64,000 bases of DNA, taken from Nanobdellota archaeon. GTDB taxonomy: Archaea; Nanobdellota; Nanobdellia; Pacearchaeales; GW2011-AR1. The position numbers and the translations under genes were made by a program. The stretch lies in contig DUKY01000015.1 in assembly GCA_013329055.1 (NCBI GenBank), positions 2,339 through 66,338 on the forward strand, written 5' to 3'. How positions within the stretch are numbered: the stretch's first letter is position 1; every line of letters begins with the position of its first letter. Below the pieces are notes generated by a model that saw only the letters and a program-made list of their open reading frames with translations, searched no databases and had not been told where the DNA came from. Of this stretch, positions 8,213 through 54,750 are shown piece after piece.

Positions 8213-8328
8213 TACCTTTGATATTCTTTTAAAAACAAACTTTTTATTGATAACAATAAATTATAATAAAGTATATAAACCTTATTTTATGTTTTGTGCT
8301 ATGGAAAAAGGATTGGTTAAATTCTAAT

Positions 8329-9630: not shown

Positions 9631-9778
9631 GAGGTTATTTTTCTGATTTTATTAAAAAACAAATTAATTTTATATGATTAATATTCATTTTTTTAGATTA
9701 TTATTTATCTGTCAAAAATATTTAAAATGCATTTTTAAATATACATAATTTTAAAAATAAAAATTTCATATCCAAATT

Positions 9779-21322: not shown

Positions 21323-23371
21323 ATGTCAAATTATAAAGCACTAATTTTAGCAGGTGGATTTGGAACAAGACTTCAGGAAGTTGTAAAAAATGTCCCAAAA
21401 CCAATGGCTTCAATTGCAGGAAAACCTTTTTTAGAGCATCAAATAAGATTTTTAAAAAAACATGGAATTGAAGATATAATCCTTGGTGTGCATTATAAAT
21501 CTGGAATTATAAAATCTTATTTTGGAAATGGAATGAGGCAAGATGTGAAATTAACTTATTCTGAAGAAGAGACACCCTTGGATACAGGTGGAGCAGTAAA
21601 ATTAGCACAAAAATATATTGATGGACCTTTCTTAGTTTTAAATGGTGATTCTTATTCCGACGTTAATTTAAATGAATTTATTAAATTTCATGAGATTCAA
21701 AAGACTCCTGGAAGTATGGTTTTACAAAGTTTAGACTCAATAGAACATTATGGGAATGTAGAATTGCAAGGAAACCTCGTTACAGAATTTAAAGAAAAAG
21801 CATCACAAGGCAAAGGCTTAATCAATGCTGGAATTTATTTATTTAAACCTGAAATTTTAGATCAAATTCCAGAATCAACAAAAATCTCTTTGGAAAAAAG
21901 TGTTTTTCCAAATTTAGTAAAAGATAAAAAAATATCCGGATTTGTTCATGATGGTTATTTTATGGATATAGGTAGACCTGAAACTTATTTTCAATTCAAA
22001 AAAGATTTTTTAGAAAGGTTGCAATCTTCAACAGATCTCGAATTAAGAGAAGCCTTAAGAAGAATGTATGATCAAGGTTCTGATATATTATTTATGGTTG
22101 ATTCAGATAAAAAATTTCTGGGTTTATTAACTGACGGAGTAATAAAAAGATATTTGATTAACGGCGGAGATTTTAATGTTAAAGTGACAGATGCAATGAT
22201 TAAAGAACCGGATAATTTAGCAATAATTACTGATAGTGAAGAAAAAATAAAAAAACATCTTCAAGAAGGGGTAAAACAACTTCCTGTGCTTGATGAAAAT
22301 GGAAGGATTCATGACATCCGTTTTAGAACAGAAGAGCTAAAAGAAGAAGAATATCCAACTATCCGTGGAAAAACTCCTTTAAGAATAAGTTTTGCCGGAG
22401 GTGGTACAGATATGCCCTATTTTTTTGAAGAATATGGTGGAGCAGTAATAAGTACTACAATTGATAAATATTGCAGAATTACTGCAAAAAAAAGAGGAGA
22501 TTCAAAGTTAGTTATTGATTCAGATATGGTTGATAAAGAAGCTGTTTTTGATACTGAAAAATTAATTTATGATGGGGGAACATTTGATTTAGTAAAATCA
22601 GTATATAATTTAGTTAATCCTGGTTGTGGAATAGATTTATTTTTAAATAATGATATTCCTCCTGGAAGAGGATTAGGTTCTTCAGCAACCTTCGCAGTTT
22701 TATTAACTAAGATTTTAGGAAAATTAAAAGGAACGGAATTTGGAGATGAAGATCTTGCGGAAATAGCATATAAGGCTGAGACGCAGGAATTAGCAATTAA
22801 GGGAGGAAAACAAGATCAATATGCAGCGATTTTTGGGGGATTCAAATGGATTGAATTTGGAAATGGTGATAAAAAAATCATGCACCCTTTAAGAATAAAA
22901 GAAGATACTTTAAATGAACTTCACAATCATCTTACACTTTGTTATACCGGAAAAGGACATCAATCAACTCATCAACAAAAATCATTAGCAAAAAGTTATA
23001 ATGAAGATCGTTCAAAAACAATTGAAAGATTAAAAAGAATAAAAGAAGGTGCAATATTAACTAGAGATTATTTGCTTTCTCCAACACCAAATTTTAAAGG
23101 GATAGGAGAAATTTTACATCAATCTTGGTTAGCTAAAAAAGAAGTTTCATCAGCTGTAACTAATGAAAGAATTGATAGTCTTTATCAAATTGGAAGAGAC
23201 AATGGTTGTTATGGGGGAAAACTTCTGGGGTCTGGCGGAGGGGGGTATATATTATTCTTTCATTCTCCTGAAAAAAGAAATAAGTTAGAAAAATCTCTTA
23301 TTAATGAAGGTGGGGAAATCCTCGATTTTAATTTTGCAAATGACTGTGCTACAATTTGGAATGGAAAATAA
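21323..23371 (+). CDS. Trifunctional-architecture protein: sugar-1-phosphate nucleotidyltransferase + CBS pair + GHMP sugar kinase (HddC-CBS-HddA-like)
   Basis: N-terminus ALILAGGFGTRLQEVVKNVPKPM. Middle CBS-like segment (FLGLLTDGVIKRYL...LPVLDENGRIHDIRF). C-terminus RISFAGGGTDMPYF and PPGRGLGSSATFAV (GHMP motif). Confidence 0.75.
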   Translation: MSNYKALILAGGFGTRLQEVVKNVPKPMASIAGKPFLEHQIRFLKKHGIEDIILGVHYKSGIIKSYFGNGMRQDVKLTYSEEETPLDTGGAVKLAQKYIDGPFLVLNGDSYSDVNLNEFIKFHEIQKTPGSMVLQSLDSIEHYGNVELQGNLVTEFKEKASQGKGLINAGIYLFKPEILDQIPESTKISLEKSVFPNLVKDKKISGFVHDGYFMDIGRPETYFQFKKDFLERLQSSTDLELREALRRMYDQGSDILFMVDSDKKFLGLLTDGVIKRYLINGGDFNVKVTDAMIKEPDNLAIITDSEEKIKKHLQEGVKQLPVLDENGRIHDIRFRTEELKEEEYPTIRGKTPLRISFAGGGTDMPYFFEEYGGAVISTTIDKYCRITAKKRGDSKLVIDSDMVDKEAVFDTEKLIYDGGTFDLVKSVYNLVNPGCGIDLFLNNDIPPGRGLGSSATFAVLLTKILGKLKGTEFGDEDLAEIAYKAETQELAIKGGKQDQYAAIFGGFKWIEFGNGDKKIMHPLRIKEDTLNELHNHLTLCYTGKGHQSTHQQKSLAKSYNEDRSKTIERLKRIKEGAILTRDYLLSPTPNFKGIGEILHQSWLAKKEVSSAVTNERIDSLYQIGRDNGCYGGKLLGSGGGGYILFFHSPEKRNKLEKSLINEGGEILDFNFANDCATIWNGK

Positions 23372-23397
23372 TATTACTACTTTAATTTATTAAAATT

Positions 23398-24693
23398 TTA
23401 TCTTAATTCTTTATCCATCTCTTCTCGAATTCTAATTAAATCATTAGATGTCAACTCATCTGTTCTGACTTCACAAGAATATTCTCCTGGTTTTCCCTTG
23501 GCAACTGATCTTTGAGAGGAAAAATTGATATTATTGAAATATAACCCATTCCATTCCCTTGTATATCCGTCATATTTTGTGGAAGGTTGAGAATGATTGT
23601 ATATCGTTGATCCTGGATAGGGGGTCATAATTGTAACATCAAAATTATTAGGTTTGTTTTCTTTTAGCCAATCTATTGTTTTTTCAATATCTTTATATGT
23701 TTCAGATGGATGCCCAATTATTGTAAACGCTTTATATGTCAAACCTGCATCCATAATCATCTTAGCCGCTTGAGAATTTATTTCCGGTGTTGTGCCCTTG
23801 TTTGTCATTTTTAATATTCTTTCAGATCCACTTTCAACACCTGAACATAACTCGACAAAACCAGCTTTTACTAATGCCTCAAGAGTTTCTGGATGCTTTA
23901 CTAATAAATCTGAACGAATAAATCCTCTATGCTGATAATTCCTATCTTTCAACAATTCTGAAATTTTCATAAGTCTTTTTGGATTTACATTTACTTCATC
24001 ATCATACCACATAAAAGATTCAAACCCAAAATTTTTATTCAAATAATCTAATTCTTCCAAAATTTTTTCTGGGCTTTTGCTTCTAGGTATTTTATACATC
24101 TCTATATCTCTTCCACAGCAAAAAGTACATTTAAATGGGCAACCTCTTTGAGTAACAATTGTTGTTGTTGACTTGCCTTTTAATGAATATTCGTATGAAA
24201 GTATGTCTATTAATTTTCTATCTGGTATGGGTTTTTCATTTATATCTTTAATTAATTTTTGGACATTCCAACCCTTTTGTAAATTAAAAGGATCAATTTC
24301 ATCACCTTCCCCTACTACTATGTGATCAAATTCCATTAATGGCTTGATGTTCACATCTTCTGTTCTTCCATTTTTCATTAAAGAATAAATTGCTGAAGGA
24401 TGAGCTCCACCAATAATTGTTTTAATTTTTGGTATCTTTTTCTTTAGTTCTTTGTGTAATTTATATGTATCAACAAATTGTGGTGTTGTTGATGAAAAAC
24501 CTATATGTGTTTCATCTTGAATCTCATTGAACATTTTTTTCAAAGGATTTTCATTGCCACATAAGTCTATAATTCTCGCATTATATCCTTTTTCTTTCAA
24601 TGAAGTTGTTAATTGTAGCAAACCTGAATTTGGAAAAACTTTATCATTTATTAAAAAAGGTGAAGGGGGATTAATTAAAGCAATTTTTTTCAT
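23398..24693 (-). CDS. B12-binding-domain radical SAM enzyme (rSAM-C)
   Basis: MKKIALINPP..., IIGGAHPS, TQRGCPFKCTFCCG (CxxxCxxC), GVESGSE. Confidence 0.8.
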   Translation of the reverse strand: MKKIALINPPSPFLINDKVFPNSGLLQLTTSLKEKGYNARIIDLCGNENPLKKMFNEIQDETHIGFSSTTPQFVDTYKLHKELKKKIPKIKTIIGGAHPSAIYSLMKNGRTEDVNIKPLMEFDHIVVGEGDEIDPFNLQKGWNVQKLIKDINEKPIPDRKLIDILSYEYSLKGKSTTTIVTQRGCPFKCTFCCGRDIEMYKIPRSKSPEKILEELDYLNKNFGFESFMWYDDEVNVNPKRLMKISELLKDRNYQHRGFIRSDLLVKHPETLEALVKAGFVELCSGVESGSERILKMTNKGTTPEINSQAAKMIMDAGLTYKAFTIIGHPSETYKDIEKTIDWLKENKPNNFDVTIMTPYPGSTIYNHSQPSTKYDGYTREWNGLYFNNINFSSQRSVAKGKPGEYSCEVRTDELTSNDLIRIREEMDKELR

Positions 24694-24763
24694 AGAAAAA
24701 AGAGATAAATTTTATTTAAAAATATATTGGTAATCTATTATCTTTTAAAATAAAATTATGACT

Positions 24764-25678
24764 CTAGAATTTGTTTCTAATGAAAGGATTAAATTTTTTT
24801 AAAATTCGATTAAAACTTTTTTTAATAAAAAATCTAGAATAAACTTTGCTATACTTTTTGTTTATTTTAATCTTTTGTTTTTGGAAGTTGCCTATTGGTG
24901 AGTATCTTCGTATTGGTATTGAAGGATCAACTTCAGTTGTATGTGTGGCATCTTTGCCAAATCCGATATTTGTAACAAGATTATGCTTTGGTATAATGCA
25001 AACTCCATTGAGAAGTCCACAAATAACTGTCCATTGATAATCTGAGGTTTGTATTTTTCCTTCATAAAATGCTTGAATTATTTGTTGAGATTTTATAGCA
25101 ATTAATAATCCTTCTTTTCTTAATTGTCGAAAAAAGAATTTAATTCTAACTTTGGGCCATATTTTTAAATTTACATCTTGATGTTTCCATGCTCTTTTCC
25201 ATGTTGCCCAACCCCAAAAATTAAATGCTGTATCTGAAAAGAAATAATCTTCTTTAATTTTTGTTATTTCTCCTACATTTGTACCAGAAATATGCATTAC
25301 TCTTTCATCATCTTTATACATCTTTAACATTTGGCTACAAAAATCAAAAAAGGCCTCACTTGTTAGAACATCATCTTCAATAATAATCCCATATTCTTCC
25401 TCTTTAAACATCATTTTCATAGCATTATCAAATGATTCTTCAATACCTTTATTTTTTTTATTAAATACTTTCTGAACTTTGCAATTCCAATCTACTTGTG
25501 AGACAATACTTCTTACTTTTTCTACTTTTTCTCTTTCTTCCTCATTTCGTGGGCCGTCTACAGATATATAAAGTTTCTTTGGTTTTACTTTTCTAATCTC
25601 TGCAAATGTTTTTTCAGCTGCCCAAGGTCTATTAAATGCTACAAATAATATTGGCACATCTAATTGTTTTTTTTTCAT
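24764..25678 (-). CDS. GT-A-fold nucleotide-diphospho-sugar transferase, paralog 1
   Basis: PILFVAFNRP...LYISVDGPRN...IIIEDDV (DxD-like). Paralog of 28836-29768. Confidence 0.55.
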   Translation of the reverse strand: MKKKQLDVPILFVAFNRPWAAEKTFAEIRKVKPKKLYISVDGPRNEEEREKVEKVRSIVSQVDWNCKVQKVFNKKNKGIEESFDNAMKMMFKEEEYGIIIEDDVLTSEAFFDFCSQMLKMYKDDERVMHISGTNVGEITKIKEDYFFSDTAFNFWGWATWKRAWKHQDVNLKIWPKVRIKFFFRQLRKEGLLIAIKSQQIIQAFYEGKIQTSDYQWTVICGLLNGVCIIPKHNLVTNIGFGKDATHTTEVDPSIPIRRYSPIGNFQKQKIKINKKYSKVYSRFFIKKSFNRILKKFNPFIRNKF

Positions 25679-25763
25679 ATTTTCAAATCTAATATTTTTT
25701 AATTATATAAAACATCTAAAAAACTTTATATACTTATCCTTAGTTTTTTTGATTAAGAATAAA

Positions 25764-26399
25764 ATGAAAATTGTTATCTATGGTGCAGGTGGGCATGGCA
25801 AGGTAATTTATGATGCCGTAATTAGTGAAGGAAAGAATGAAGTGATTGGATTTATTGACGATGGAAAAAATAAGGGGGAAAATATTCTAGATTGTGAAAT
25901 TTTAGGTGGAAAAAAAGATTTAGAAAAATTAATTAAAGAAGGTAAAATTGAAGGGATTATTGTTGCTTTTGCAGATGTTACAGGGGCTAATAAGTTAAGA
26001 GAAAAATTTAATCATGAATTTAAAAGTATTGGATTAAAAGTAGTTGGGGTTATTCATCCAATGGCTATTATTTCAAATTATGCTTCCATTCATCCAACAG
26101 CACAAATCTTGGCTGGAGCGATGATTTCTGTTGGAAGCAAAATTGGTGAAGGGACAATTGTCAATCATTATGCTAAAGTAGATCATGATTGTAATATTGG
26201 AAATTATGTGCATTTGGCTCCAAATGCTACTTTGTGTGGAAATGTTTCTGTAAATAATTATTCCTATATTGGGGCATCTTCTTCGATAAAAGAAAAAATA
26301 AAAATTGGAAAAAGTGTTATTGTTGGTATGGGTTCAGCAGTAATAAATGATGTTTTGGATTTTAGAAGAGTAATTGGTGTCCCAGCTAAAGAAAAATAA
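25764..26399 (+). CDS. NeuD/PglD-type sugar N-acetyltransferase (left-handed beta-helix). Start moved to the ATG at 25764.
   Basis: KIVIYGAGGHGKVIYDAV N-terminal domain followed by hexapeptide repeats (IHPTAQI..GAMISVGSKIGEGTIVNH...). Confidence 0.75.
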   Translation: MKIVIYGAGGHGKVIYDAVISEGKNEVIGFIDDGKNKGENILDCEILGGKKDLEKLIKEGKIEGIIVAFADVTGANKLREKFNHEFKSIGLKVVGVIHPMAIISNYASIHPTAQILAGAMISVGSKIGEGTIVNHYAKVDHDCNIGNYVHLAPNATLCGNVSVNNYSYIGASSSIKEKIKIGKSVIVGMGSAVINDVLDFRRVIGVPAKEK

Positions 26400-26402
26400 T
26401 AA

Positions 26403-27530
26403 TTAATTTTGATTTAAAATTGTAAGCCCTTCTTTTAAATTTTCTACTATATAATCTATCTCTTCTTCTTTTAAATTACTGTAAAACGGAAGAGCAATAG
26501 TTCTTTTTGAAAATTTTTCTGCATTTGGGAATTCCCCCCCGGTAAATCCAAATTTTTCTTTAAAAACTGGTTGTGTATGAATGCATGGAAAATATGCTCT
26601 GGATGAAATACCTTTTCCTTCGAGATATTTTATCAAATTATCTCTAATTTTTTGATCTACTTGAATAAAAAAGATATACCAACTGATTTTTATATCTGGA
26701 AATTTTGGTGGAAGTCTAATTCCTTTTATCCCTTTTAATTTTTGAATATATTCATTAGCAATTTTTTCTCTTTTTGAAAGGATTTCATCAATTCTTTGCA
26801 TTTGAGCACAACCAAGTGCACAACTCAGTTCATTGATCCAATAATTATATCCTATCCTTTCATGTATTGCCCATCCATAATCTGCACTTCCATGATGTCT
26901 TAAACTCTTGCATAGTTTTGCAATTTTTTCGTCTGATGTTACAATCATTCCCCCTTCACCTGTTGTTATTTGTTTATTTGGAAAAAATGCAAATGTAGCA
27001 ATATTTGCTTTTTTACCCACTCTTTCACCTTTGTATTCTGAACCAATTGCTTCACAAGAATCTTCTATAACATAAAGATTATGTTTTTTTGCAATCTCCA
27101 TGATTTTATCCATGTCACATGGATATCCAAAATAATCAACAGTAAGAATTGCTTTAGTTTTTGGGGTAATCTTTGCTTCTATTTTTGTAGGATCAAGATT
27201 TCCTGTTTCTGAATCAACATCTGAAAAAACAGGGGTTACTCTTTCCATCATTAAACAACTTGTAGATGCAATAAAGCTAAGTGGTGTAGTTATAACTTCA
27301 TCCCCTTCTGTTAATCCCAATGCCTTAACTGCTAAATGAAGTGCACTAGTCCCACTATTTACTGCTATTGCATAAGGAACATTAATATAATTAGCTATTC
27401 TTTCTTCAAATTCTTTTAATTCTGGTCCCCTACTAATTATTGGGCTTTTTAATACTCCCACGACTCTTTCAATTTCTAAATCAGTTATATCTTGAGATGA
27501 AAGGGGTATGTTCCTCTTAATTTTTTCCAT
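26403..27530 (-). CDS. DegT/PglE/PseC-type PLP-dependent sugar aminotransferase
   Basis: NSGTSALHLAVKALG, IEDSCEAIGSEY, FAFFPNKQITTGEGGM (PLP-Lys region). Confidence 0.8.
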   Translation of the reverse strand: MEKIKRNIPLSSQDITDLEIERVVGVLKSPIISRGPELKEFEERIANYINVPYAIAVNSGTSALHLAVKALGLTEGDEVITTPLSFIASTSCLMMERVTPVFSDVDSETGNLDPTKIEAKITPKTKAILTVDYFGYPCDMDKIMEIAKKHNLYVIEDSCEAIGSEYKGERVGKKANIATFAFFPNKQITTGEGGMIVTSDEKIAKLCKSLRHHGSADYGWAIHERIGYNYWINELSCALGCAQMQRIDEILSKREKIANEYIQKLKGIKGIRLPPKFPDIKISWYIFFIQVDQKIRDNLIKYLEGKGISSRAYFPCIHTQPVFKEKFGFTGGEFPNAEKFSKRTIALPFYSNLKEEEIDYIVENLKEGLTILNQN

Positions 27531-27619
27531 ATCTTATTAAATAGGATTATCTTTTTTAAAACTTTATATTGATATTTTTACAGCAAAATCTTTAAAAATG
27601 AATTTCTTCTCGTTTTCTT

Positions 27620-28717
27620 ATGAGAAATAATCATGTTATTCAAGAAGATTTAAAGAATATTTCTGAGGAACTTCATGACCTCTCATATAATCTTCAAGGA
27701 AAAACAGTATTAATTACTGGGGGTGCAGGATTTTTAGGAAAATATATTGTTTACTCTTTACAATATCTTAACGAAAACAAATTTACGAATCCATGTAAAA
27801 TTATTGTTTTAGATAACTATATTGTTGGAACAAAGGGAATTTTTGATAAAGACCCAAATTTGCAAATTATTGAGCAAGATATTATAAAACCATTTGATAT
27901 AGAAGGGAATGTTGATTATATTTTTCATGCTGCAAGTATTGCTTCTCCTGTTTTTTATCATAAATATCCTATTGAAACTATTGATGTTGGTTTTTTTGGG
28001 ACAAAAAATATGCTTGAATTAGCAAGAGAAAAAAAAGTAAAAAGTTTTATGTTTTTTAGTTCAAGTGAAGTATATGGAAATCCTCCTGCTGATATGATTC
28101 CAACCCTTGAATCTTATAATGGAAATGTTTCCTTTACCGGTCCTAGGGCTCATTATGATGAACCAAAAAGACTTGGAGAAACTCTTTGTATGACTTATGA
28201 AAAAGTACATAAGGTCCCAGTAAAGGTCGTAAGGCCATTTAATATTTATGGTCCTGGAATGAGGTTAGATGATGGAAGAGGAATTACTAATTTTGTAGTT
28301 CAAGGATATAAAAAATCTAAAATTTTTGTATATGGCAACGGAAGAAATACTCGTACATGGTGCTATATAAGTGATGCAATAATTGGGCTTTTTAAAATAC
28401 TTCTTTCAGAGAATCAGGGACAAGCTTACAATCTTGGAACAGATAGGGGGGAAATTGAGATGGTCGACCTTGCTGAATTGACTTCAAGTTTGATGGAAAA
28501 TAATCCTGAAGTAATCTTTGTTGATGGACCGATTAATGTTTATAAAGACGCAGATGTAAATCGAAGATGTGCAAATATCAATAAAATTAGGTCAGAACTA
28601 AAATTCGAACCCAAGGTTAGTTTAGTTCGTGGATTAAGGAGGTTTATTCTTTGGACTGGGGAAGAATTAAAAAGACAATCTTTAATTGAAAAAACTTCTT
28701 ATTTTAAAAAAGAATAA
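27620..28717 (+). CDS. UDP-glucuronate decarboxylase (UXS)/ArnA-C-like extended SDR
   Basis: VLITGGAGFLGKYIV, ASPVFYHKYPIETIDVGFFGTKNMLELA, SSSEVYGNP, YDEPKRLGE. Confidence 0.6.
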   Translation: MRNNHVIQEDLKNISEELHDLSYNLQGKTVLITGGAGFLGKYIVYSLQYLNENKFTNPCKIIVLDNYIVGTKGIFDKDPNLQIIEQDIIKPFDIEGNVDYIFHAASIASPVFYHKYPIETIDVGFFGTKNMLELAREKKVKSFMFFSSSEVYGNPPADMIPTLESYNGNVSFTGPRAHYDEPKRLGETLCMTYEKVHKVPVKVVRPFNIYGPGMRLDDGRGITNFVVQGYKKSKIFVYGNGRNTRTWCYISDAIIGLFKILLSENQGQAYNLGTDRGEIEMVDLAELTSSLMENNPEVIFVDGPINVYKDADVNRRCANINKIRSELKFEPKVSLVRGLRRFILWTGEELKRQSLIEKTSYFKKE

Positions 28718-28835
28718 ATTTTTAGTGCTAGCAAGGTTATATTTACTCAAAAAAAGATGAGAGTAGATTAATTAAGATTGTTTTTCATAAAATCTATTAA
28801 TGATATTTTTAAAAATATTGTTATGATATAACTTT

Positions 28836-29768
28836 ATGCAAAAATTCAAATTAACAACTCCAGTATTATTTATGGTTTTTAATAGGTTAGATACTACTAA
28901 ACAGGTTTTTGGAGAAATCAAAAAAGCAAAACCCCAAAAACTTTTTATTGCTTGTGATGGTCCAAGAAATACAGAAGAGAAGAAAAAAACAGATGCTGTT
29001 CGAAGTTATATCCTTAAAAATATTAGTTGGAAATGTGAAGTAAAAACCTTATTTAGAGAAAAAAATTTAGGATGCAAATATGCTGTTGCTGGAGCAATTG
29101 ATTGGTTTTTTGAAAATGTTGAACAAGGGATAATTTTAGAAGATGATTGTTTACCATCACAATCTTTTTTTAGATTTTGCCAAGAGATGCTTGAAAAATA
29201 TAGTGATAATCCAGAAATTATGCACATTTCTGGAACAAATATTGAAATTAAATCCAAAATAAAAGAAGATTATTTTTTTTCAAATGTCTTTAATGTTTGG
29301 GGTTGGGCAACATGGAAAAGGGTATGGAAAAAATATGATGTTGGCATGAAAGGTTGGCCACAGTATAGATGGACTTTTTTTAAATTTTTAAGAAAATATC
29401 CTCTTTTTAATAAAATTAATACTTTAAGGATTTATGAATTAACTTATAGTAATAAAATTAATACATGGGATTATCAATGGGGATTTGCGTGTAAAATTAA
29501 TAATGGGTTAGCAATTATCCCAAAAGTAAATTTAATAACTAATTTAGGGTTTGACGAAGGAACTCATACAACTAATTACAAAAAAAATGAAAAAACTTTA
29601 GAAAGATTTAAACTGGACTTTCCTTTGAATGAAAATAAAATCGTTGAGCCTCGAGTAAATTATCTTAAAAGTTATTTAAGTTTTTTTTCAAATTTTAGTC
29701 TATTTTCATTTTATGATTTTTTCAGTTATTTGTTGAAAAAAATATTTAAAAAATTAGGTAAATTTTAA
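28836..29768 (+). CDS. GT-A-fold nucleotide-diphospho-sugar transferase, paralog 2
   Basis: PVLFMVFNRL...LFIACDGPRN...IILEDDC...MHISGTNI...WGWATWKR. Colinear with 24764-25678. Confidence 0.55.
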   Translation: MQKFKLTTPVLFMVFNRLDTTKQVFGEIKKAKPQKLFIACDGPRNTEEKKKTDAVRSYILKNISWKCEVKTLFREKNLGCKYAVAGAIDWFFENVEQGIILEDDCLPSQSFFRFCQEMLEKYSDNPEIMHISGTNIEIKSKIKEDYFFSNVFNVWGWATWKRVWKKYDVGMKGWPQYRWTFFKFLRKYPLFNKINTLRIYELTYSNKINTWDYQWGFACKINNGLAIIPKVNLITNLGFDEGTHTTNYKKNEKTLERFKLDFPLNENKIVEPRVNYLKSYLSFFSNFSLFSFYDFFSYLLKKIFKKLGKF

Positions 29769-29830
29769 TCAAAGTTATATATATAAATAGTTATGGAAAA
29801 GGTTTTAAACATCTAACTTAAATAAGTTTT

Positions 29831-31129
29831 ATGAAAAAAAGAATTTTATTAATTGATCCCCCTTTTCAAAAGTTTATGAATTTTTCTAAAAATGGCATTC
29901 CAATAGGATTACTTTCTTTAGCAGGAGAGTTAAAATCTAAAGGTAATATTGTGAATGTATTTGATGCCGATTATAATCCAAAAGGCAATCCTTATCCTTT
30001 TATTGCAAAATTAAATCATTATGATGAATATTTAAGTGGGATTAATAATTTAGATCACGTTATTTGGAAAGATATAGAATCACAAATAAAATCCTATAAT
30101 CCGGAGGTAGTTGGAATTTCTCTTATTTCAACAAAATTAAAAAGTGGATTAATTGTTGCTAAAATTGCTAAAGATTTAGGTGTACAAAGAATAATCGCTG
30201 GCGGTCCGCATGTAACAATTTATCCCGAAGATGCCTTTGGAGAAGATAGTTGTATTGACAGTGTTATTCAAGGTGAAGGAGAAAATGTTTTTGAAAAAGC
30301 TTTAACTGAAAAAATTGTTAAGGCAGAAAGAATAAAAGATATTAAAAAATTGGCTTGGCCTGCCAGAGAATCTCTTATTAATTTAAAAGATTATTTACCC
30401 AATGATTTGGGGTTTGTAATGAGCTCCCGTGGTTGCCCTGGTTCTTGCAATTTTTGTTGTTCAGAAAGTTTATGGGGCAGGTCTATACGTTTTAGAGAGA
30501 TTGATGATGTTTTAAATGAAATGGATTCTATTCATAAAAATTATGGGACTCAAAAGTTTTATTTGGTTGATGATACTTTCACACTAAATCGTAAAAGAGT
30601 AGAAAATTTTTGTGAAGGCATACAAAAAAGAAATTATAAATGGAGTTGTTTGACAAGGGTTGATAGGTTGAACGAGAATATGCTTGAAAAGATGTCTCAA
30701 TCTGGTTGTTCTATGGTAAAAGTTGGTATTGAAAGTGGAAGTCAAAAAGTTTTGGATTTAATGAATAAAGAAATTAATCTTACCCAAATAAAAAGAGCAG
30801 CAAATTTATTAAATAAGTTTTCTATGCCTTGGTTGGCTTATATCATGGTTGGTGTTCCTGATGAAACTTCTGAGGATGTGGATAAAACGATTCAATTAAT
30901 TGATGAGATTCGACCTTCATATGTTAGTGCCGCAATCTATACCCCTTATCCTGGGACTAAATTTTCCAAAAAGAACAAAGTAATTGATTTTGCAAGAGAA
31001 GAGGCAAATCACCATAGTTTAAAAGTTTTAGCTGGAAATGTCCCAAGAGAAAAAATAATTGAATTTATGGAGTTTGCGGATAAATATAATTCAAATTCTA
31101 AACCTGCTAAAATAATCTATAAATGTTAA
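29831..31129 (+). CDS. B12-binding-domain radical SAM enzyme (rSAM-D)
   Basis: MKKRILLIDPP..., IAGGPHVT, SSRGCPGSCNFCCSE (CxxxCxxC), GIESGSQ. Confidence 0.8.
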   Translation: MKKRILLIDPPFQKFMNFSKNGIPIGLLSLAGELKSKGNIVNVFDADYNPKGNPYPFIAKLNHYDEYLSGINNLDHVIWKDIESQIKSYNPEVVGISLISTKLKSGLIVAKIAKDLGVQRIIAGGPHVTIYPEDAFGEDSCIDSVIQGEGENVFEKALTEKIVKAERIKDIKKLAWPARESLINLKDYLPNDLGFVMSSRGCPGSCNFCCSESLWGRSIRFREIDDVLNEMDSIHKNYGTQKFYLVDDTFTLNRKRVENFCEGIQKRNYKWSCLTRVDRLNENMLEKMSQSGCSMVKVGIESGSQKVLDLMNKEINLTQIKRAANLLNKFSMPWLAYIMVGVPDETSEDVDKTIQLIDEIRPSYVSAAIYTPYPGTKFSKKNKVIDFAREEANHHSLKVLAGNVPREKIIEFMEFADKYNSNSKPAKIIYKC

Positions 31130-31210
31130 TTTATTTATTCAATAAATTTAAAAATTTTAAAAATAATTATAATCTATTATAAAAAAGAATGAAGGAAATT
31201 TTCAATTAAA

Positions 31211-32095
31211 ATGATCCTTAAAAATTTTGAGATACATATTGTGCACTATGAATTATTAAAAGAAAGAAGAAGTTATTTAGAAAAACGGTTAAAATATTTT
31301 GGTTTAGAAAAATTTTGTTTTTGGCATATCCAAAAAATAAATCAGGATTTTTCAAATCTTAAAAAAAAATATTATAAATTTGATAAAGATATTTGGACGG
31401 AAAGAATTAAATTTTCTCATGATAAAATTACTCCTTCTATTATGCCTCGTGAATTATCGCATGGTGATATGAAACTCGGAATTAATGAACTAAAGCTTTT
31501 TGATTTTCTTGCAGAAAGAAAAGGGAATAATATCTATCTTATTTTAGAAGATGATGTAATTTTGGAAGAAAATTTTTTAGACAAACTAAAAAAAATATTA
31601 AGAATTTTACCCAAAGATTTTGATATTGCTTATACTGATTTTGGTGTAAATGATGCAAAAAAATATTTATCTGTAGATAATCTTCAATTTAAAAAATTAG
31701 ATAAAAATCATAAAAAAACAAGAACTACTGCATCATTTTTTATAAATTCGAAATCTGCGAAAAAATTTTCCAGGGATATAAAACCTTTTACACTCCCTTT
31801 AGACCATGAATTAAGATACTGGGAAGTAAAAAAGAATTACAATACTTATTGGTTAAATGGTTATTTAACTTATCAAGGGACTATTTATGGAGATATTTAT
31901 CCCAGTTCATTATTTCCAACAAGAGTTAAAGAATATTATCAGAGAATTCCTTTTTATAAAAAAATTATTTTAGATTTTATTAAAAATACTGAAGCAAAAA
32001 GGTTTAATAAATCAATTTTCAGTAAAATTCAAGTTAATTTGTTAGATTTATTGATATTTTTAAAGAATTCTATCCATGTATTGGATAAGAGATAA
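31211..32095 (+). CDS. Putative glycosyltransferase, GT25-like
   Basis: The N-terminal IHIVHYELLKERRSYLEKRL, the ELSHGDMKLGINE segment and LILEDDVILEENF resemble GT25 (LPS glycosyltransferase) motifs. Confidence 0.45.
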   Translation: MILKNFEIHIVHYELLKERRSYLEKRLKYFGLEKFCFWHIQKINQDFSNLKKKYYKFDKDIWTERIKFSHDKITPSIMPRELSHGDMKLGINELKLFDFLAERKGNNIYLILEDDVILEENFLDKLKKILRILPKDFDIAYTDFGVNDAKKYLSVDNLQFKKLDKNHKKTRTTASFFINSKSAKKFSRDIKPFTLPLDHELRYWEVKKNYNTYWLNGYLTYQGTIYGDIYPSSLFPTRVKEYYQRIPFYKKIILDFIKNTEAKRFNKSIFSKIQVNLLDLLIFLKNSIHVLDKR

Positions 32096-32126
32096 AATTA
32101 AAAAGTAATTTTTATAAAGTTTATTT

Positions 32127-33068
32127 ATGGAATTTAAAGTGAAAAAGATTATCTTAAAAACAGATAAGGATTTTTTTATTGTTTTATCTAAAAAAAAATT
32201 AGAAAAATTTCTCTTTTTGACTTCTATTGATTTTAAAAAGAAGGCTTTTTCATCAATTTTTTTAAATCCTTTTTATTTTTTTGATATTTTAATTATTTTT
32301 ACTAAGAGCGTTATTAGAAAAGTATTTGGGGTAAAACCGGCTCTTTCTGAATATTCTTTAATGAAAAGAATAAGCAGTACACCTTATTTTGATAAAATTA
32401 TTGAATTAAATTTAATTTTTAATGATAGTCAAAAAGTTAACTTCAATATGAATAATTTTCATTTATTTAATCTCACGGGGGATATAATTGGAATTTTTGT
32501 AAAAAATCAGTATAACATTAATTCTGAGAAGATTAAAGGAAAGATTATCTTAGATTGTGGTGCACATCATGGGGCATTTTCATTTTTATGCATTTTACTT
32601 GGAGCTAAGAAAGTTTATTCTTTTGAACCCCTCTCTAAAACTTTTGAAATTTTAAATGAGAATATTAAATTGAATAAATTTGAAAAAAATATTTTATCTT
32701 TCAAAAATGCTATTGGAAATGAAAGCTCTTCTGAAAAAATTTTTTTTGACAATATTGCCGATGGTTCTGCTTCCTTAAATAAAGTTCATGGTAAATTTGA
32801 ATTAGTTAAAGTTATTGGACTGGATGATTTTATTAAAAAAAATAATCTAAAGGATGTTGGTTTGATTAAGATGGATATAGAAGGAAATGAAGAAAAAGCT
32901 CTTTTAGGGGCAAAAAATTTAATTCATAAAGATAAACCGATATTAACATTGTCTGCATATCATAAAGCTGATGATAAAATTGTTTTACCTCGTGTTATCA
33001 AATCTCTCAATAAAAATTATAAAATTAAACTCCTTAATCGTTTTGAAGAAGATTTTTATTGTGAATAA
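32127..33068 (+). CDS. FkbM-family methyltransferase
   Basis: ILDCGAHHGAFS ... IKMDIEGNEEKAL. An N-terminal hydrophobic stretch suggests membrane association. Confidence 0.7.
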   Translation: MEFKVKKIILKTDKDFFIVLSKKKLEKFLFLTSIDFKKKAFSSIFLNPFYFFDILIIFTKSVIRKVFGVKPALSEYSLMKRISSTPYFDKIIELNLIFNDSQKVNFNMNNFHLFNLTGDIIGIFVKNQYNINSEKIKGKIILDCGAHHGAFSFLCILLGAKKVYSFEPLSKTFEILNENIKLNKFEKNILSFKNAIGNESSSEKIFFDNIADGSASLNKVHGKFELVKVIGLDDFIKKNNLKDVGLIKMDIEGNEEKALLGAKNLIHKDKPILTLSAYHKADDKIVLPRVIKSLNKNYKIKLLNRFEEDFYCE

Positions 33069-33123
33069 ATTCTCCGAAATTTATTCTAAAAACCCTTAAA
33101 AATCCCTTTCTCTTCTCTTATTC

Positions 33124-34911
33124 ATGTGCGGAATAAATGGTTTTAATTTTATCAATAAGCCTCTCTTAAAGCAAATGAATTATTCAATCGCTCATAGGGG
33201 TCCTGATGCAGAAGGTTCTTTTTTTGATAAAAATATTTCTTTAGGGCATAGGCGTTTAGCAATTATTGATTTATCTCAAAATGGGGCACAACCAATGACT
33301 TATATTCATAAAAAAAATAAAGTCACAATAACATTTAATGGAGAGATTTATAATTTTCAAGAGATAAAGGAAGAATTGGTAAAATTAGGATATAAATTTA
33401 AATCTAATTCTGATACTGAAATAATATTGGCTTCATATCTTGAATGGGGAAAAGATTGTGTTAAAAAATTCAATGGAATGTGGGCATTTTGTATTTATGA
33501 TCCTCAAAAACAAATTTTATTCTTATCTCGTGATAGAGTAGGAAAAAAACCCCTATATTATTATTTTGATAAAAATAAATTTATTTTTTCTTCAGAAATA
33601 AAAGGAATATTAAAACACAAAATAAAATTTGAATTAAATAAAGATGCAATTGATTTATATTTTTCATTAGGATTTATTCCAGCACCTTATTCGATTTATA
33701 AAAATATAAATAAATTAGAACAACGACAATCTTTAATCTATAATCTTAAAACAAATAATTTAGAAAAAGAATATTATTATGAATGGCCAAATTATAACCC
33801 CCAAAAAAAGAATTTTAAACAAGAATTTTATAACTTAATTAAAGACTCAACTAAATTGAGAATGATCTCTGATGTTCCTTTAGGGGCATTTCTTTCAGGA
33901 GGACTCGATTCTTCAACAATAGTAAATTTTGCACAAATGTTTAATAAAAATATTAATACTTATTCAATTGGTTTTGAAGGAAAATATGATGAAACTCCTT
34001 ATATAAATATCACAAAAAATCATTTTAAAACAAATCATCATCATAAATATTATACTGAAAAAGATTTTAAAAATCAATTAAAAGAAATCTTTTATTATTT
34101 TGATGAGCCTTTTTCGGATTCTTCAATGTTTCCGACGGAATTTCTAACAAAATTCGCAAGGGAAGAATTAACTGTATCTTTAAGTGGAGATGGTGGTGAT
34201 GAAGTTTTTGGTGGTTATCCGAGATATAAATATGCACTACAATTAACAATTTTAAGAAAAATGCCTAAATCAATTAGAAAATTATTAATGTTTATACCCT
34301 ATTCAAAATTAAAAGAAGGTTTAAAATTAAGTTTACTCTCAAAAGAATCATTTTATTCCGAAGCTAGAACAGATTTTTTTAAGCCTCAAATTACAAGGGA
34401 AATTTTAGAAAAAAGATTAAAAAAATGTTTAGAAAAGACAAATAATGATTTAATTCAAGCAGTAAGATTAATGGATATTGAATTTTATACCCTGCCAGAT
34501 AATTTTTTAACAAAAGTTGACAGAGCTTCAATGGCAAATGCTATGGAAATAAGATGCCCTTTCCTAGATTATCGATTAATTGAACTTTCAATGCAATCCC
34601 CCTCAAAAAATATTGTCTCAATGTTTAATGAAAAAAATTTATTTCGTGAAATAATAAAAGATTTTTTACCGTCAAGAATAATAAATAAGAAAAAACAAGG
34701 ATTCACTCCACCGATAAATGATTGGATAACAAAACCAGAATATAAAAAAGAACTTGAAAAAAGCTTAGAAGAATTAAAAGAAATATTGCCAAAAGAATGG
34801 ATTCAATTTTATCCCGCTAAAATTTTTCCGACAAACTCTTTAGTGCATAATAATTATAAAATTAGATTATATCTGTTTTATAGATGGTATAAATACTGGA
34901 ATAAAAATTAA
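33124..34911 (+). CDS. asnB: Asparagine synthase (glutamine-hydrolysing)-family amidotransferase
   Basis: MCGI N-terminal nucleophile Cys2, HRGPD, and FLSGGLDSS (PP-loop). Confidence 0.8.
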   Translation: MCGINGFNFINKPLLKQMNYSIAHRGPDAEGSFFDKNISLGHRRLAIIDLSQNGAQPMTYIHKKNKVTITFNGEIYNFQEIKEELVKLGYKFKSNSDTEIILASYLEWGKDCVKKFNGMWAFCIYDPQKQILFLSRDRVGKKPLYYYFDKNKFIFSSEIKGILKHKIKFELNKDAIDLYFSLGFIPAPYSIYKNINKLEQRQSLIYNLKTNNLEKEYYYEWPNYNPQKKNFKQEFYNLIKDSTKLRMISDVPLGAFLSGGLDSSTIVNFAQMFNKNINTYSIGFEGKYDETPYINITKNHFKTNHHHKYYTEKDFKNQLKEIFYYFDEPFSDSSMFPTEFLTKFAREELTVSLSGDGGDEVFGGYPRYKYALQLTILRKMPKSIRKLLMFIPYSKLKEGLKLSLLSKESFYSEARTDFFKPQITREILEKRLKKCLEKTNNDLIQAVRLMDIEFYTLPDNFLTKVDRASMANAMEIRCPFLDYRLIELSMQSPSKNIVSMFNEKNLFREIIKDFLPSRIINKKKQGFTPPINDWITKPEYKKELEKSLEELKEILPKEWIQFYPAKIFPTNSLVHNNYKIRLYLFYRWYKYWNKN

Positions 34912-35039
34912 AATAATTATTAGTATTGCATAATCAAAGAAATCTTAGTTAATTAAAATCCCCCTAAGAGCGAAATAAACTAATTAAGATAAACTTTTCT
35001 TTACATATATAAACAAAAGTTTACAAACTTTAATTATTA

Positions 35040-39459: not shown

Positions 39460-39569
39460 AAAAAATAATATATTTTTTCAATTAATAAAGTTTGTCCAAA
39501 AATTTTTACTCCTCGACATCAATGAAAATTATTAGAAAATCTTTTAAAATTGATATTTCTTATCACTTT

Positions 39570-43010: not shown

Positions 43011-43011
43011 T

Positions 43012-53793: not shown

Positions 53794-53988
53794 TGCCCGG
53801 ACCTGTTCTCCTGCCTTCGCACGAAACTTTATGGATTATTATTTCTACCACGAAGTTACTCGTCGAACCCTTGGGTTCTTCATCCCAGAAATGCGCGGAC
53901 CTGTTCTCCTAACTTCGCTCGAAATCATTTGGATTATTATTTCTACCACGAAGTTACTCGTCGAACCCTCGGGTTCTTCATCCCGAAA
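53794..53988 (-). repeat. Two tandem units of about 97 bp directly 3' of tRNA-Gly, each a T-arm/acceptor copy split by an insert
   Basis: Units at 53794-53891 and 53892-53988. On the minus strand each reads ..CCGAGGGTTCGA-[about 66 nt]-GGTCCG(C/G)GCA, versus tRNA CCGGGTTCGAATCCCGGTCCGCGCA. Confidence 0.9.
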
Positions 53989-54344: not shown

Positions 54345-54351
54345 AAATGGA

Positions 54352-54716: not shown

Positions 54717-54750
54717 ATATAGTTTTTTAGAAGATTTAGTTTTTAATAAT

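What the first reader, a model, noticed from the sequence alone, without database searches (positions are those of the whole stretch)
23398..31129. Mirror-image duplication of a [GT-A transferase + B12-radical SAM] two-gene module around an amino-sugar cassette
The gene order is rSAM-C(-), GT-A(-), then PglD-like acetyltransferase(+), PglE-like aminotransferase(-), UXS-like SDR(+), then GT-A(+), rSAM-D(+). The two GT-A proteins are colinear paralogs (P[IV]LF..FNR...L[YF]I..DGPRN...II[IL]EDD...MHISGTN...WGWATWKR). The two rSAMs have similar size and N-termini (MKKIALINPP / MKKRILLIDPP). Repeated adjacency in inverted orientation suggests the transferase and the radical SAM enzyme act as a functional pair, for example add-then-modify or modify-then-transfer.
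Basis: partly seen in the sequence, partly recalled or inferred. Interest (0 to 1): 0.65.

Follow-up and report, generated by a model that had tools for sequence, protein, structure and literature searches.

The report
Two glycan cassettes, not a duplication
The mirror-image pair of "sugar transferase + radical SAM enzyme" genes is real, but it comes from two unrelated gene cassettes sitting side by side in the variable surface-sugar island of a tiny DPANN archaeon, not from a duplication, and the two enzyme types are only loose, occasional partners elsewhere.

Summary
The gene order and coordinates are as described. The two GT-A proteins are paralogs (49% identity). Both radical SAM proteins carry B12-binding and Radical_SAM domains.

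The "mirror duplication" reading fails on four counts.
- rSAM-C and rSAM-D are 29% identical. That is no closer than rSAM-D is to rSAM-B, and each belongs to its own large subfamily.
- Each GT-A has many closer relatives elsewhere.
- The only DNA-level inverted match is 53 nt.
- Related archaea carry one cassette or the other. Window 21335-28678 occurs alone in L001/L004, and 28850-34912 occurs alone in L085/L006.

The window comes from a DPANN ("Nanoarchaeota") archaeon and holds a roughly 40-kb mosaic surface-glycan island.

Family-wide co-occurrence is weak. A B12-rSAM lies within 10 kb in 2 of 80 genome loci and in 6 of 39 metagenome loci of at least 8 kb. The GT-A was within 7 kb of 1 of 7 rSAM-C/D homologs sampled without regard to GT-A. 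When both genes are present they usually sit 0-2 genes apart, in shuffled subfamily combinations.

The commonest neighbours of the GT-A family are ordinary SAM methyltransferases.

Best reading: a GnT-I-like transferase adds a sugar, and a neighbouring tailoring enzyme modifies that sugar. Here the tailoring enzyme is an AprD4/QCMT-like radical SAM. This is moderately interesting and not categorically new.

The parts
21323..23371 (+). Fused sugar-1-phosphate nucleotidylyltransferase / CBS / GHMP kinase. It forms the left edge of cassette 1.
   Evidence: Pfam NTP_transferase plus GHMP_kinases_N/C. It is collinear with L001/L004 at 76% DNA identity as part of the block 21335-28678.
23398..24693 (-). 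rSAM-C: a radical SAM protein with a B12-binding-type N-terminal domain, from the rSAM-C subfamily.
   Evidence: Pfam B12-binding (43.5 bits) and Radical_SAM (98.7 bits). The CxxxCxxC cysteines C185/C189/C192 are invariant across 38 family members. 529 homologs score E<1e-30, and more than 100 of them are 46-65% identical. The AF2 model has pLDDT 93; its closest structure is AprD4 with TM 0.72-0.74. No NCBIfam model reaches its cut-off.
24764..25678 (-). GTA-1: a GnT-I-like (GT13-like) GT-A glycosyltransferase and a divergent member of a large unnamed family.
   Evidence: 49% identical to GTA-2. 1537 homologs were found. The EDD (DXD), DGPR and WGWAxWxR motifs are invariant. The AF2 model has pLDDT 88, with top Foldseek matches POMGnT1 and GnT-I. 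Pfam GNT-I scores only 19.3 bits against a 25.4-bit cut-off.
25749..26399 (+). NeuD/PglD-type sugar N-acetyltransferase.
   Evidence: PglD_N plus Hexapep. TIGR03570 scores 193.7 bits, above its cut-off of 160.8.
26403..27530 (-). DegT-type nucleotide-sugar aminotransferase.
   Evidence: Pfam DegT_DnrJ_EryC1, E 1e-120. The best PDB relatives are perosamine synthase, QdtB and ArnB.
27620..28717 (+). UXS-like SDR, a probable UDP-glucuronate decarboxylase type. It forms the right edge of cassette 1.
   Evidence: The best PDB relatives are human UXS1 entries, E 1.6e-53. Collinearity with L001/L004 ends at 28678.
28836..29768 (+). GTA-2: a GnT-I-like GT-A glycosyltransferase and a mainstream member of the same family. 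It forms the left edge of cassette 2.
   Evidence: 100% identical to P0031, named 'Nanoarchaeota archaeon'. It is 62-72% identical to many relatives. GTA-1 ranks only 225th of 291 among its relatives. Its 5' half is 86.6% identical in DNA to L085.
29831..31129 (+). rSAM-D: a radical SAM protein with a B12-binding-type domain, from the rSAM-D subfamily.
   Evidence: Pfam B12-binding (51.1 bits) and Radical_SAM (89 bits). It is 98% identical to the L085/L006 protein. 921 homologs score E<1e-30. It is only 29% identical to rSAM-C.
31211..34911 (+). GT25-like transferase, FkbM methyltransferase and asparagine-synthase-like amidotransferase. These are the conserved downstream partners of rSAM-D.
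   Evidence: Pfam. They are 90.7% identical in DNA to L085/L006. The same three families follow the rSAM-D homolog in L170.
8296..11167 (+). rSAM-A (8296-9630) and rSAM-B (9779-11167): two further radical SAM genes with B12-binding-type domains in the same island, used here as the comparison set.
Evidence: Pfam.
25173..25225 (.). One arm of the only notable DNA-level inverted match between the two modules. The other arm is at 29289-29341. Both arms encode the conserved WGWATWKR motif.
   Evidence: the repeat finder reports 53 nt at 87% complementarity and no longer inverted repeat.

Best explanation
The region is the junction of two independent gene cassettes inside a roughly 40-kb mosaic surface-glycan island of a DPANN (Nanoarchaeota-type) archaeon.

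Cassette 1 spans about 21335-28678. It encodes a nucleotide-sugar activation enzyme, rSAM-C, GTA-1 and a three-gene amino-sugar set. That set is a UXS-like decarboxylase/dehydratase, a DegT aminotransferase and a PglD-like N-acetyltransferase, and it probably makes a UDP-4-acetamido-4-deoxy sugar.

Cassette 2 spans about 28850-34912. It encodes GTA-2, rSAM-D, a GT25-like transferase, an FkbM methyltransferase and an amidotransferase.

The mirror symmetry arises because the two cassettes abut in opposite orientations. It does not come from an inverted duplication.

Inferred mechanism: each GnT-I-like GT-A uses its EDD (DXD) motif to transfer a sugar from a nucleotide sugar onto the growing lipid-linked glycan. 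A neighbouring tailoring enzyme then modifies that sugar or its precursor. In most organisms this neighbour is an ordinary SAM methyltransferase. In this lineage the slot is filled by a radical SAM enzyme with a B12-type domain. That enzyme most likely C-methylates an unactivated sugar carbon, or deoxygenates or rearranges it in the manner of AprD4.

Shown: the gene identities, the folds, the non-sister relationship, the cassette mosaic and the neighbourhood statistics. Inferred: the substrates, the order of the steps and the radical chemistry.
For: Archaeal DPANN origin:
- GTA-2 and rSAM-C are identical to proteins that NCBI names 'Nanoarchaeota archaeon'.
- L006 is 'Candidatus Nanoarchaeia archaeon' and shares 90-97% DNA identity with the window.
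- The ribosomal protein L3 gene is the 315-aa archaeal type.

Cassettes occur separately:
- L001/L004 match window 21335-28678 at 76% DNA identity. They then continue with a methyltransferase and a GT2 in place of GTA-2/rSAM-D.
- L085/L006 match 28850-34912. They lack the whole 7163-28717 block.

The modules are not sisters:
- rSAM-C versus rSAM-D scores 130 bits, and rSAM-D versus rSAM-B scores 134 bits.
- C and D sit in separate clades of the NJ tree.
- The C family has more than 100 members at 46-65% identity.
- GTA-2 ranks 40th among GTA-1's relatives. GTA-1 ranks 225th of 291 among GTA-2's relatives.
- The only inverted DNA match is 53 nt.

Pairings are shuffled. The GT-As beside rSAM-C-type genes in L168/L169 are 62% identical to GTA-2 and 45% identical to GTA-1.

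The GT-A is GnT-I-like, with an invariant EDD motif.

Tailoring-neighbour pattern:
- Of 122 immediate neighbours of the GT-A in 80 genomes, about 35 are SAM methyltransferases. Of 101 control genes four positions away, 8-14 are (Fisher p 7e-5 to 9e-3).
- In L085 a Methyltransf_23 gene sits between the GT-A and rSAM-D.

Proximity: when a GT-A and an rSAM share a locus, they are 0-2 genes apart in 9 of 10 cases examined.

Closest solved relatives of the rSAMs are AprD4, a sugar 1,2-diol dehydratase, and QCMT, a B12 C-methyltransferase.

rSAM-C/D homologs always lie in glycan loci, often beside AglB/STT3.
Against: - No biochemical evidence exists for any member of the GT-A family or of the rSAM-C/D subfamilies.
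- No NCBIfam model reaches its cut-off.
- The choice between methylation and dehydration is open. The best fold match, AprD4, does not bind cobalamin (PMC12931638). HMM-level best hits are to ApyD, BchE and HpnJ, all far below threshold.
- The methyltransferase-slot analogy is an inference from neighbourhood statistics.
- The window holds no AglB, so the glycan's destination (N-glycan or polysaccharide) is unknown.
- The tree is NJ without bootstrap support.
- Gene calls in the loci are simple longest-ORF calls.
Confidence: 0.62

Rival explanations
1. One reading: an ancestral two-gene unit (GT-A plus B12-rSAM) was duplicated in inverted orientation around the amino-sugar cassette, and the copies then diverged.
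For: The two GT-As are clear paralogs, 49% identical and colinear. Both rSAMs share the same domain architecture and length. Both pairs are co-directional, with the GT first and gaps of 62-70 bp.
Against: rSAM-C and rSAM-D are 29% identical, no closer than D is to B, and they lie in different clades. Orthologs show that the rSAM evolves no faster than the GT-A, at 81% versus 74% identity. The 49%/29% asymmetry therefore does not fit a joint duplication. Hundreds of database proteins are closer to each copy than the copies are to each other. Each module occurs alone in related genomes. No DNA-level inverted repeat exceeds 53 nt.
Confidence: 0.04
2. The GT-A and the B12-rSAM form an obligate, co-evolving two-enzyme unit or physical complex that defines a specific add-then-modify step wherever it occurs.
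For: Adjacency recurs in the window (twice), in L001-L004 and in L168/L169. L109, whose two ORFs overlap, was also counted as adjacent. The genes are near-adjacent in L085/L006, L150, L063 and L107. These juxtapositions involve different rSAM subfamilies and orientations, which suggests repeated selection for proximity. Association with an rSAM is enriched in DPANN/CPR, at 2 of 8 loci against 0 of 72 (p 0.009).
Against: 78 of 80 GTDB loci with the GT-A have no B12-rSAM within 10 kb, and neither do 33 of 39 metagenome loci of at least 8 kb. Of the rSAM-C/D homologs chosen without regard to GT-A, none of 3 C-type loci and 1 of 4 D-type loci held a GT-A within 7 kb, and that one lay 4 genes away. 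The partners are not co-phyletic. A methyltransferase gene can sit between them. No multimer prediction could be run.
Confidence: 0.1
3. The adjacency is incidental. Both families are simply common components of crowded, recombining DPANN/CPR glycan islands, and there is no direct functional link between the transferase and the radical SAM.
For: The islands are mosaic and cassette-shuffled. rSAM-C/D homologs sit beside many different transferase families, including GT4, GT2, GT17, GT10 and AglH-like. The within-window chance of both adjacencies is about 3.6%, which is not extreme. Family-wide co-occurrence is near the background level.
Against: When both genes are in a locus, they are 0-2 genes apart in 9 of 10 cases, in loci of 9-22 genes. 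That is tighter than random placement would give. Adjacency has arisen in at least three different subfamily combinations.
Confidence: 0.24

Closest known systems
GT13 N-acetylglucosaminyltransferases (rabbit GnT-I, PDB 1FO8; human POMGnT1, PDB 5GGI)
   Same: GT-A Rossmann-type fold. These are the top Foldseek matches (E 2e-11 to 1e-9, TMq about 0.5-0.57). The EDD motif lies where GnT-I has its DXD motif and is invariant across the family. There is a weak Pfam GNT-I hit.
   Different: Only 11-16% identity. The Pfam score is below the gathering threshold. There is no PDB hit by sequence. The proteins are prokaryotic and about 300 aa long, with no stem or transmembrane region. The C-terminal half is family-specific and variable. 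Donor and acceptor are unknown.
AprD4, the radical SAM 1,2-diol dehydratase of apramycin biosynthesis (PDB 6FD2)
   Same: It is the best solved-structure match for rSAM-C, with TM 0.72-0.74 over the full length. It is also the best PDB sequence hit for both rSAM-C and rSAM-D. It acts on an amino-sugar substrate. It has the same two-domain layout, a Rossmann-type N-domain followed by a radical SAM barrel.
   Different: 19% identity. The NCBIfam AprD4 model scores 70-92 bits against a cut-off of 500. AprD4 does not bind cobalamin (PMC12931638). Whether rSAM-C/D bind cobalamin is unknown. The context here is a surface-glycan locus, not an aminoglycoside cluster.
Cobalamin-dependent (class B) radical SAM methyltransferases (QCMT/MgmA 9CCB, TsrM, TokK, CysS)
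   Same: Pfam B12-binding plus Radical_SAM architecture and a CxxxCxxC cluster motif. QCMT is the second-best PDB hit by sequence and by fold.
   Different: TM is only 0.55-0.63. All named NCBIfam class B equivalogs score far below their cut-offs. No cobalamin-binding evidence is available here, and the substrate is unknown.
Mosaic O-antigen / capsule / archaeal N-glycosylation (agl) gene islands
   Same: A long run of nucleotide-sugar enzymes, transferases, a Wzx-type flippase and methyltransferases. Relatives differ by whole-cassette swaps. Homologous islands in relatives abut AglB/STT3.
   Different: The island holds four radical SAM genes with B12-type domains, from four different lineages, and it sits in a small DPANN archaeon. 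No AglB lies in the window.

Membership tests
Inverted segmental duplication of a two-gene module | The two copies of each gene are each other's closest relatives. | tested here: not met
   rSAM C-D scores 130 bits and D-B scores 134 bits. C and D fall in separate clades. GTA-1 ranks 225th of 291 among GTA-2's relatives.
Inverted segmental duplication of a two-gene module | Both genes of the unit show comparable divergence, given their relative rates. | tested here: not met
   The GT-A pair is 49% identical and the rSAM pair 29%. Between orthologs the rSAM is the more conserved gene, at 81% versus 74%.
Inverted segmental duplication of a two-gene module | A residual DNA-level inverted repeat spans the unit. 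| tested here: not met
   There is only one notable inverted match (53 nt, 87% complementary), in the WGWATWKR-coding stretch; the nine other pairs reported are 25-37 nt.
GT13 / GnT-I-like GT-A glycosyltransferases | GT-A fold with closest structural similarity to GnT-I-type enzymes. | tested here: met
   The AF2 model has pLDDT 88. Top Foldseek hits are POMGnT1 and GnT-I, followed by GnT-II.
GT13 / GnT-I-like GT-A glycosyltransferases | Conserved DXD metal / nucleotide-sugar binding motif. | tested here: met
   E101-D102-D103 is invariant in 22 diverse members.
GT13 / GnT-I-like GT-A glycosyltransferases | Sequence membership, meaning the Pfam GNT-I gathering score is reached. | tested here: not met
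   GTA-1 scores 19.3 bits against a cut-off of 25.4. GTA-2 has no hit. There is no NCBIfam hit and no PDB sequence hit.
GT13 / GnT-I-like GT-A glycosyltransferases | UDP-GlcNAc-dependent beta-1,2 transfer to mannose. | not testable with these tools
   This needs an enzyme assay.
Cobalamin-dependent (class B) radical SAM enzymes | Radical SAM core with a CxxxCxxC [4Fe-4S] motif. | tested here: met
   Pfam Radical_SAM scores 98.7 and 89 bits. C185, C189 and C192 are invariant in the rSAM-C family. GCPGSCNFC is present in rSAM-D.
Cobalamin-dependent (class B) radical SAM enzymes | N-terminal B12-binding-type Rossmann domain. | tested here: met
   Pfam B12-binding scores 43.5 and 51.1 bits against a cut-off of 32.1.
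Cobalamin-dependent (class B) radical SAM enzymes | Actual cobalamin binding and use. | not testable with these tools
   The closest fold, AprD4, has the same domain but binds no cobalamin (PMC12931638).
Named B12-rSAM equivalogs (ApyD, BchE, HpnJ, PhpK, AprD4, QCMT, HpnR, BzaD) | The NCBIfam curated cut-off is reached. | tested here: not met
   The best scores are 124 bits (C) and 165 bits (D) to ApyD, against a cut-off of 750. All other models are also far below their cut-offs.
Conserved GT-A + B12-rSAM gene pair | The two families co-occur across genomes. | tested here: not met
   A B12-rSAM lies within 10 kb in 2 of 80 GTDB loci and 6 of 39 longer metagenome loci. A GT-A lies within 7 kb in 1 of 7 rSAM-C/D loci sampled without bias. 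Adjacency does recur in a DPANN/CPR subset.

The most novel reading that the evidence does not exclude
The rSAM-C and rSAM-D subfamilies each have hundreds of members. They are found almost only in DPANN archaea and CPR bacteria, always inside surface-glycan or N-glycosylation islands. They may be dedicated radical enzymes that C-methylate or deoxygenate a sugar of the cell-surface glycan, working on the residue installed by the neighbouring GnT-I-like transferase. That would be a type of surface-glycan chemistry not yet described for any organism. It would also mean that genome-reduced symbionts, which presumably must scavenge B12, invest in up to four such enzymes per island.
Probability: 0.25. 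Interest if true: 0.7.

Novelty: new member of a known kind. Interest (0 to 1): 0.38.

Why it matters
Surface glycans are probably central to how DPANN archaea and CPR bacteria attach to their hosts, and almost nothing is known about their chemistry. This analysis removes a tempting but wrong evolutionary story, the module duplication. It replaces it with a cassette-mosaic picture like that of O-antigen loci.

It also flags three uncharacterised families as concrete targets for biochemistry:
- a GnT-I-like GT-A family with more than 1,500 members that is preferentially neighboured by methyltransferases;
- the rSAM-C radical SAM subfamily, confined to glycan islands and AprD4/QCMT-like;
- the rSAM-D radical SAM subfamily, with the same confinement and the same closest relatives.

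If the radical SAMs do tailor glycan sugars, that would extend radical sugar chemistry from antibiotic pathways to cell-surface glycans.

Tried and rejected
- **In-situ inverted duplication.** Rejected on pairwise scores, the tree, the rate argument, the lack of a DNA repeat and the separate occurrence of the cassettes.
- **Bacterial LPS/O-antigen locus.** This was my first guess from the low GC and the gene content. I dropped it once identical proteins turned out to be named Nanoarchaeota and the L3 gene proved to be the archaeal type.
- **Family-wide GT-A/rSAM co-occurrence.** Tested on 160 loci and found rare.
- **A recombination breakpoint inside GTA-2 at the WGWATWKR motif.** The drop in identity in the C-terminal half is a general feature of the family, not specific to L085, so it is not claimed.
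- **PDB profile search for the GT-A family.** It gave no hits.
- **Literature searches** for B12-rSAMs in O-antigen, DPANN or Patescibacteria glycan loci. They found nothing directly relevant.
- **P0131 locus.** It could not be checked for a GT-A because no DNA was returned.
It is not available here.

Full report
**1. Observation**

- rSAM-C 23398-24693(-)
- GTA-1 24764-25678(-)
- acetyltransferase 25749-26399(+)
- aminotransferase 26403-27530(-)
- SDR 27620-28717(+)
- GTA-2 28836-29768(+)
- rSAM-D 29831-31129(+)

The domain calls hold.
- Both rSAMs pass the Pfam cut-offs for B12-binding and Radical_SAM.
- The acetyltransferase passes the NeuD/PglB/VioB model.
- The aminotransferase is DegT-type, closest to perosamine synthase and ArnB.
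- The SDR's best solved relatives are human UDP-glucuronate decarboxylase entries (E 1.6e-53), so 'UXS-like' is fair.

GTA-1 and GTA-2 are colinear paralogs (49% identity over 249 aa, E 4e-84), and the quoted motifs are present.

With 4 rSAMs and 2 GT-As among about 40 island genes, both GT-As fall beside an rSAM in about 3.6% of random orders.

**2. Source organism and locus**

GTA-2 and rSAM-C are 100% identical to database proteins on a 316-kb contig that NCBI names 'Nanoarchaeota archaeon'. A 'Candidatus Nanoarchaeia archaeon' MAG (L006) shares 90-97% DNA identity over several kb. The window's ribosomal protein L3 is the 315-aa archaeal type. GC content is about 28%.

Genes from about 1.5 to 42.5 kb form one large glycan island. 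It contains:
- GT4, GT10, GT25 and WecG-type transferases;
- many SDRs and two DegT aminotransferases;
- a split TPP enzyme;
- heptose-type activation genes (SIS, HAD, and a fused nucleotidyltransferase/GHMP kinase);
- several SAM methyltransferases;
- a Wzx-type flippase;
- four radical SAM genes with B12-type domains.

**3. Was it a duplication? No.**

(a) All-against-all BLAST inside the window gave these scores:

| Pair | Bits |
|---|---|
| D-B | 134 |
| C-D | 130 |
| D-A | 116 |
| A-B | 112 |
| C-A | 107 |
| C-B | 91 |

(b) rSAM-C has 529 homologs with E<1e-30, more than 100 of them 46-65% identical over the full length. rSAM-D has 921 such homologs, with about 68 listed representatives at 43% identity or more. 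An NJ tree puts C and D in separate populated clades, with A nearer C and B on the D side.

(c) In a pooled set of 291 GT-A sequences, GTA-2 ranks 40th among GTA-1's relatives. GTA-1 ranks 225th among GTA-2's relatives.

(d) Rate argument. Between the window and L001, rSAM-C is 81% identical and GTA-1 is 74% identical. The rSAM is therefore not the faster-evolving partner, yet the supposed duplicates are 29% (rSAM) and 49% (GT-A) identical.

(e) The only inverted DNA match between the modules is 53 nt and encodes WGWATWKR.

(f) Comparative loci show the two halves as separate cassettes. L001/L004 are collinear with window 21335-28678 at 76% DNA identity. That block runs from the nucleotidyltransferase/kinase through rSAM-C, GTA-1, the acetyltransferase and the aminotransferase to the SDR. 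After it, L001/L004 continue with a methyltransferase and a GT2 rather than GTA-2/rSAM-D.

L085/L006 match window 28850-34912:

| Segment | DNA identity |
|---|---|
| 5' half of the GT-A | 86.6% |
| rSAM-D | 97% |
| GT25 / FkbM / amidotransferase | 90.7% |

L085/L006 lack the entire 7163-28717 block. They have a Methyltransf_23 gene between the GT-A and rSAM-D, and a GT10 gene after rSAM-D.

The mirror is the junction (intergenic 28718-28835) of two cassettes in opposite orientation.

**4. Are the GT-A and the B12-rSAM a pair?**

From the GT-A side:
- In 80 GTDB species genomes carrying the family, only 2 have a B12-rSAM-like gene within 10 kb. These are L006 (Nanoarchaeia) and L063 (Saccharibacteria).
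- In 80 metagenome loci ranked by similarity to GTA-2, 6 of the 39 loci of at least 8 kb have one. Two of those six are the L001 and L006 contigs seen again.
- The two genome hits are both DPANN/CPR, 2 of 8 against 0 of 72 (p 0.009).

From the rSAM side, homologs chosen only for contig length gave this result:
- rSAM-C type: no GT-A within 7 kb in L165, L166 and L167. A fourth locus returned no DNA.
- rSAM-D type: L170 has a GT-A four genes upstream. L171, L172 and L173 have none.
- L168 and L169 do show a GT-A divergently adjacent to an rSAM-C-type gene, with a GT25 behind it.

When both genes are in a locus, they are 0-2 genes apart in 9 of 10 cases.

The combinations are shuffled. The GT-As beside rSAM-C-type genes in L168/L169 are GTA-2-like (62% identical) and not GTA-1-like (45% identical).

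In summary, the two are not an obligate or co-evolving pair. They show a recurrent, lineage-restricted tendency to be neighbours.

**5. What the GT-A family usually sits next to**

I scanned the immediate neighbours of the GT-A in the 80 genome loci, and control genes four positions away in the same loci, against Pfam:

| Pfam family | Immediate neighbours (of 122) | Controls at ±4 genes (of 101) |
|---|---|---|
| Methyltransf_23 | 21 | 6 |
| Methyltransf_11 | 10 | 7 |
| FkbM (Methyltransf_21) | 11 | not in the top 25 |
| TylF | 3 | not in the top 25 |
| Radical_SAM | not in the top 25 | not in the top 25 |

- I counted the Methyltransf_23, FkbM and TylF neighbours as about 35 of 122 methyltransferases next to the GT-A.
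- The control set holds about 8 of 101, or at most 14 if the families do not overlap.
- The methyltransferase excess is about 3.6-fold, or about 2-fold in that worst case (Fisher p 7e-5, worst case 9e-3).
- The family's typical partner is therefore a sugar-tailoring methyltransferase.

**6. What the proteins are**

GT-A family:
- It has 1537 hits, mostly unnamed.
- It has no NCBIfam model.
- Pfam GNT-I is below threshold, and there is no PDB hit by sequence.
- The AF2 model (pLDDT 88) matches POMGnT1, GnT-I and GnT-II best.
- EDD, DGPR and WGWAxWxR are invariant.
- The N-terminal 165 residues are much more conserved than the C-terminal half. That fits a conserved donor site and a variable acceptor site.

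rSAM-C:
- The AF2 model has pLDDT 93.
- AprD4, a sugar 1,2-diol dehydratase, is the best fold match at TM 0.72-0.74. True B12 enzymes (QCMT, TsrM, OxsB, CysS, TokK) score 0.55-0.63.
- By sequence, AprD4 and QCMT (PDB 9CCB, identified through PMC12931638) are the top PDB hits for both C and D.
- That review notes that AprD4 does not bind cobalamin. Cobalamin use by rSAM-C/D therefore cannot be assumed.
- All named NCBIfam equivalogs are far below their cut-offs.

**7. Mechanism I commit to**

Cassette 1 probably converts UDP-GlcA to a UDP-4-acetamido-4-deoxy sugar. It would use the UXS-like SDR, the DegT aminotransferase and the PglD-like acetyltransferase, by analogy with the established ArnA/ArnB and PglE/PglD logic. 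This step is inferred.

GTA-1 and GTA-2 each transfer a sugar to the lipid-linked glycan. The adjacent radical SAM tailors that residue or its precursor, by C-methylation or by AprD4-type deoxygenation. In doing so it fills the 'tailoring neighbour' slot that ordinary methyltransferases fill in most other organisms. My confidence in the overall explanation, evolutionary and structural picture included, is about 0.6. The specific chemistry is much less certain.

**8. Novelty and verdict**

The arrangement is ordinary cassette mosaicism of a surface-glycan island, which is a known kind of locus. The component families are uncharacterised. Four radical SAM genes from four different lineages in one DPANN island is notable.

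- Interest: 0.38.
- Most novel reading still open: these are dedicated glycan-tailoring radical enzymes of DPANN/CPR. I put its probability at about 0.25 and its interest, if true, at about 0.7.

Noticed in passing
window 11187-12137(-) and 12825-13778(-): Two SDR genes are 72.7% identical to each other and flank an adh_short gene (12151-12828). This is a genuinely recent duplication inside the same island, far closer than the GT-A or rSAM 'mirror' pairs.
   Followed up: partly
window 8296-9630(+) and 9779-11167(+): Two further radical SAM genes with B12-type domains (rSAM-A and rSAM-B) lie in tandem after a GT10 fucosyltransferase-like gene and before a run of four SDR/adh_short genes. They are as distant from each other (26% identity) as from rSAM-C and rSAM-D.
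   Followed up: partly
L005-L084 (80 GTDB genome loci), genes flanking the GT-A: The immediate neighbours of this GT-A family are enriched for SAM-dependent methyltransferases (Methyltransf_23, FkbM, TylF). About 35 of 122 neighbours are methyltransferases, against 8-14 of 101 control genes four positions away.
   Followed up: yes
window 42537-44309(-): The UDP-glucose/GDP-mannose dehydrogenase looks split or truncated. The 283-aa ORF 43458-44309 begins at position 74 of the Pfam N-domain and lacks the C-domain. Two small ORFs (43012-43461, 42537-43010) follow on the same strand.
   Followed up: no
window 47304-49715(+) and 50519-52249(+): Full-length bacterial-type MutS (all five domains) and MutL genes are present in what is otherwise a DPANN archaeal contig.
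   Followed up: no
window 21323-23371(+), 38878-39459(-), 39492-40103(+): There is a 682-aa fusion of a sugar-phosphate nucleotidyltransferase, a CBS domain and a GHMP kinase, plus separate SIS isomerase and HAD phosphatase genes. Together they resemble an NDP-heptose activation pathway. The fusion is conserved in L001/L004.
   Followed up: partly
window 16026-17788(+): A split TPP-dependent enzyme (an E1/transketolase-like N part and a pyrimidine-binding/C part) lies inside the glycan island. The same split pair occurs in the related glycan loci L001, L004 and L172.
   Followed up: no
window 53988-54717(-) and 58271-58385(+): A cluster of three tRNA genes (Gly-TCC, Arg-CCT, Leu-AAG) and a stand-alone 5S rRNA gene lie in the ORF-poor stretches.
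   Followed up: no
L155 7793-11578 and L159 463-4248: In two metagenome loci the GT-A domain lies inside an ORF of about 1260 aa, which suggests multidomain fusions of this family.
   Followed up: no
window 52250-53203(-): A CofD-family (2-phospho-L-lactate transferase-like) gene scores E 4e-95 in a genome-reduced DPANN archaeon.
   Followed up: no
L063 10001-11586: The Saccharibacteria locus has two consecutive ORFs that both hit the GT-A profile (a tandem or split GT-A). An rSAM-C-like gene (32% identity, 239 bits) lies two genes downstream on the opposite strand.
   Followed up: partly
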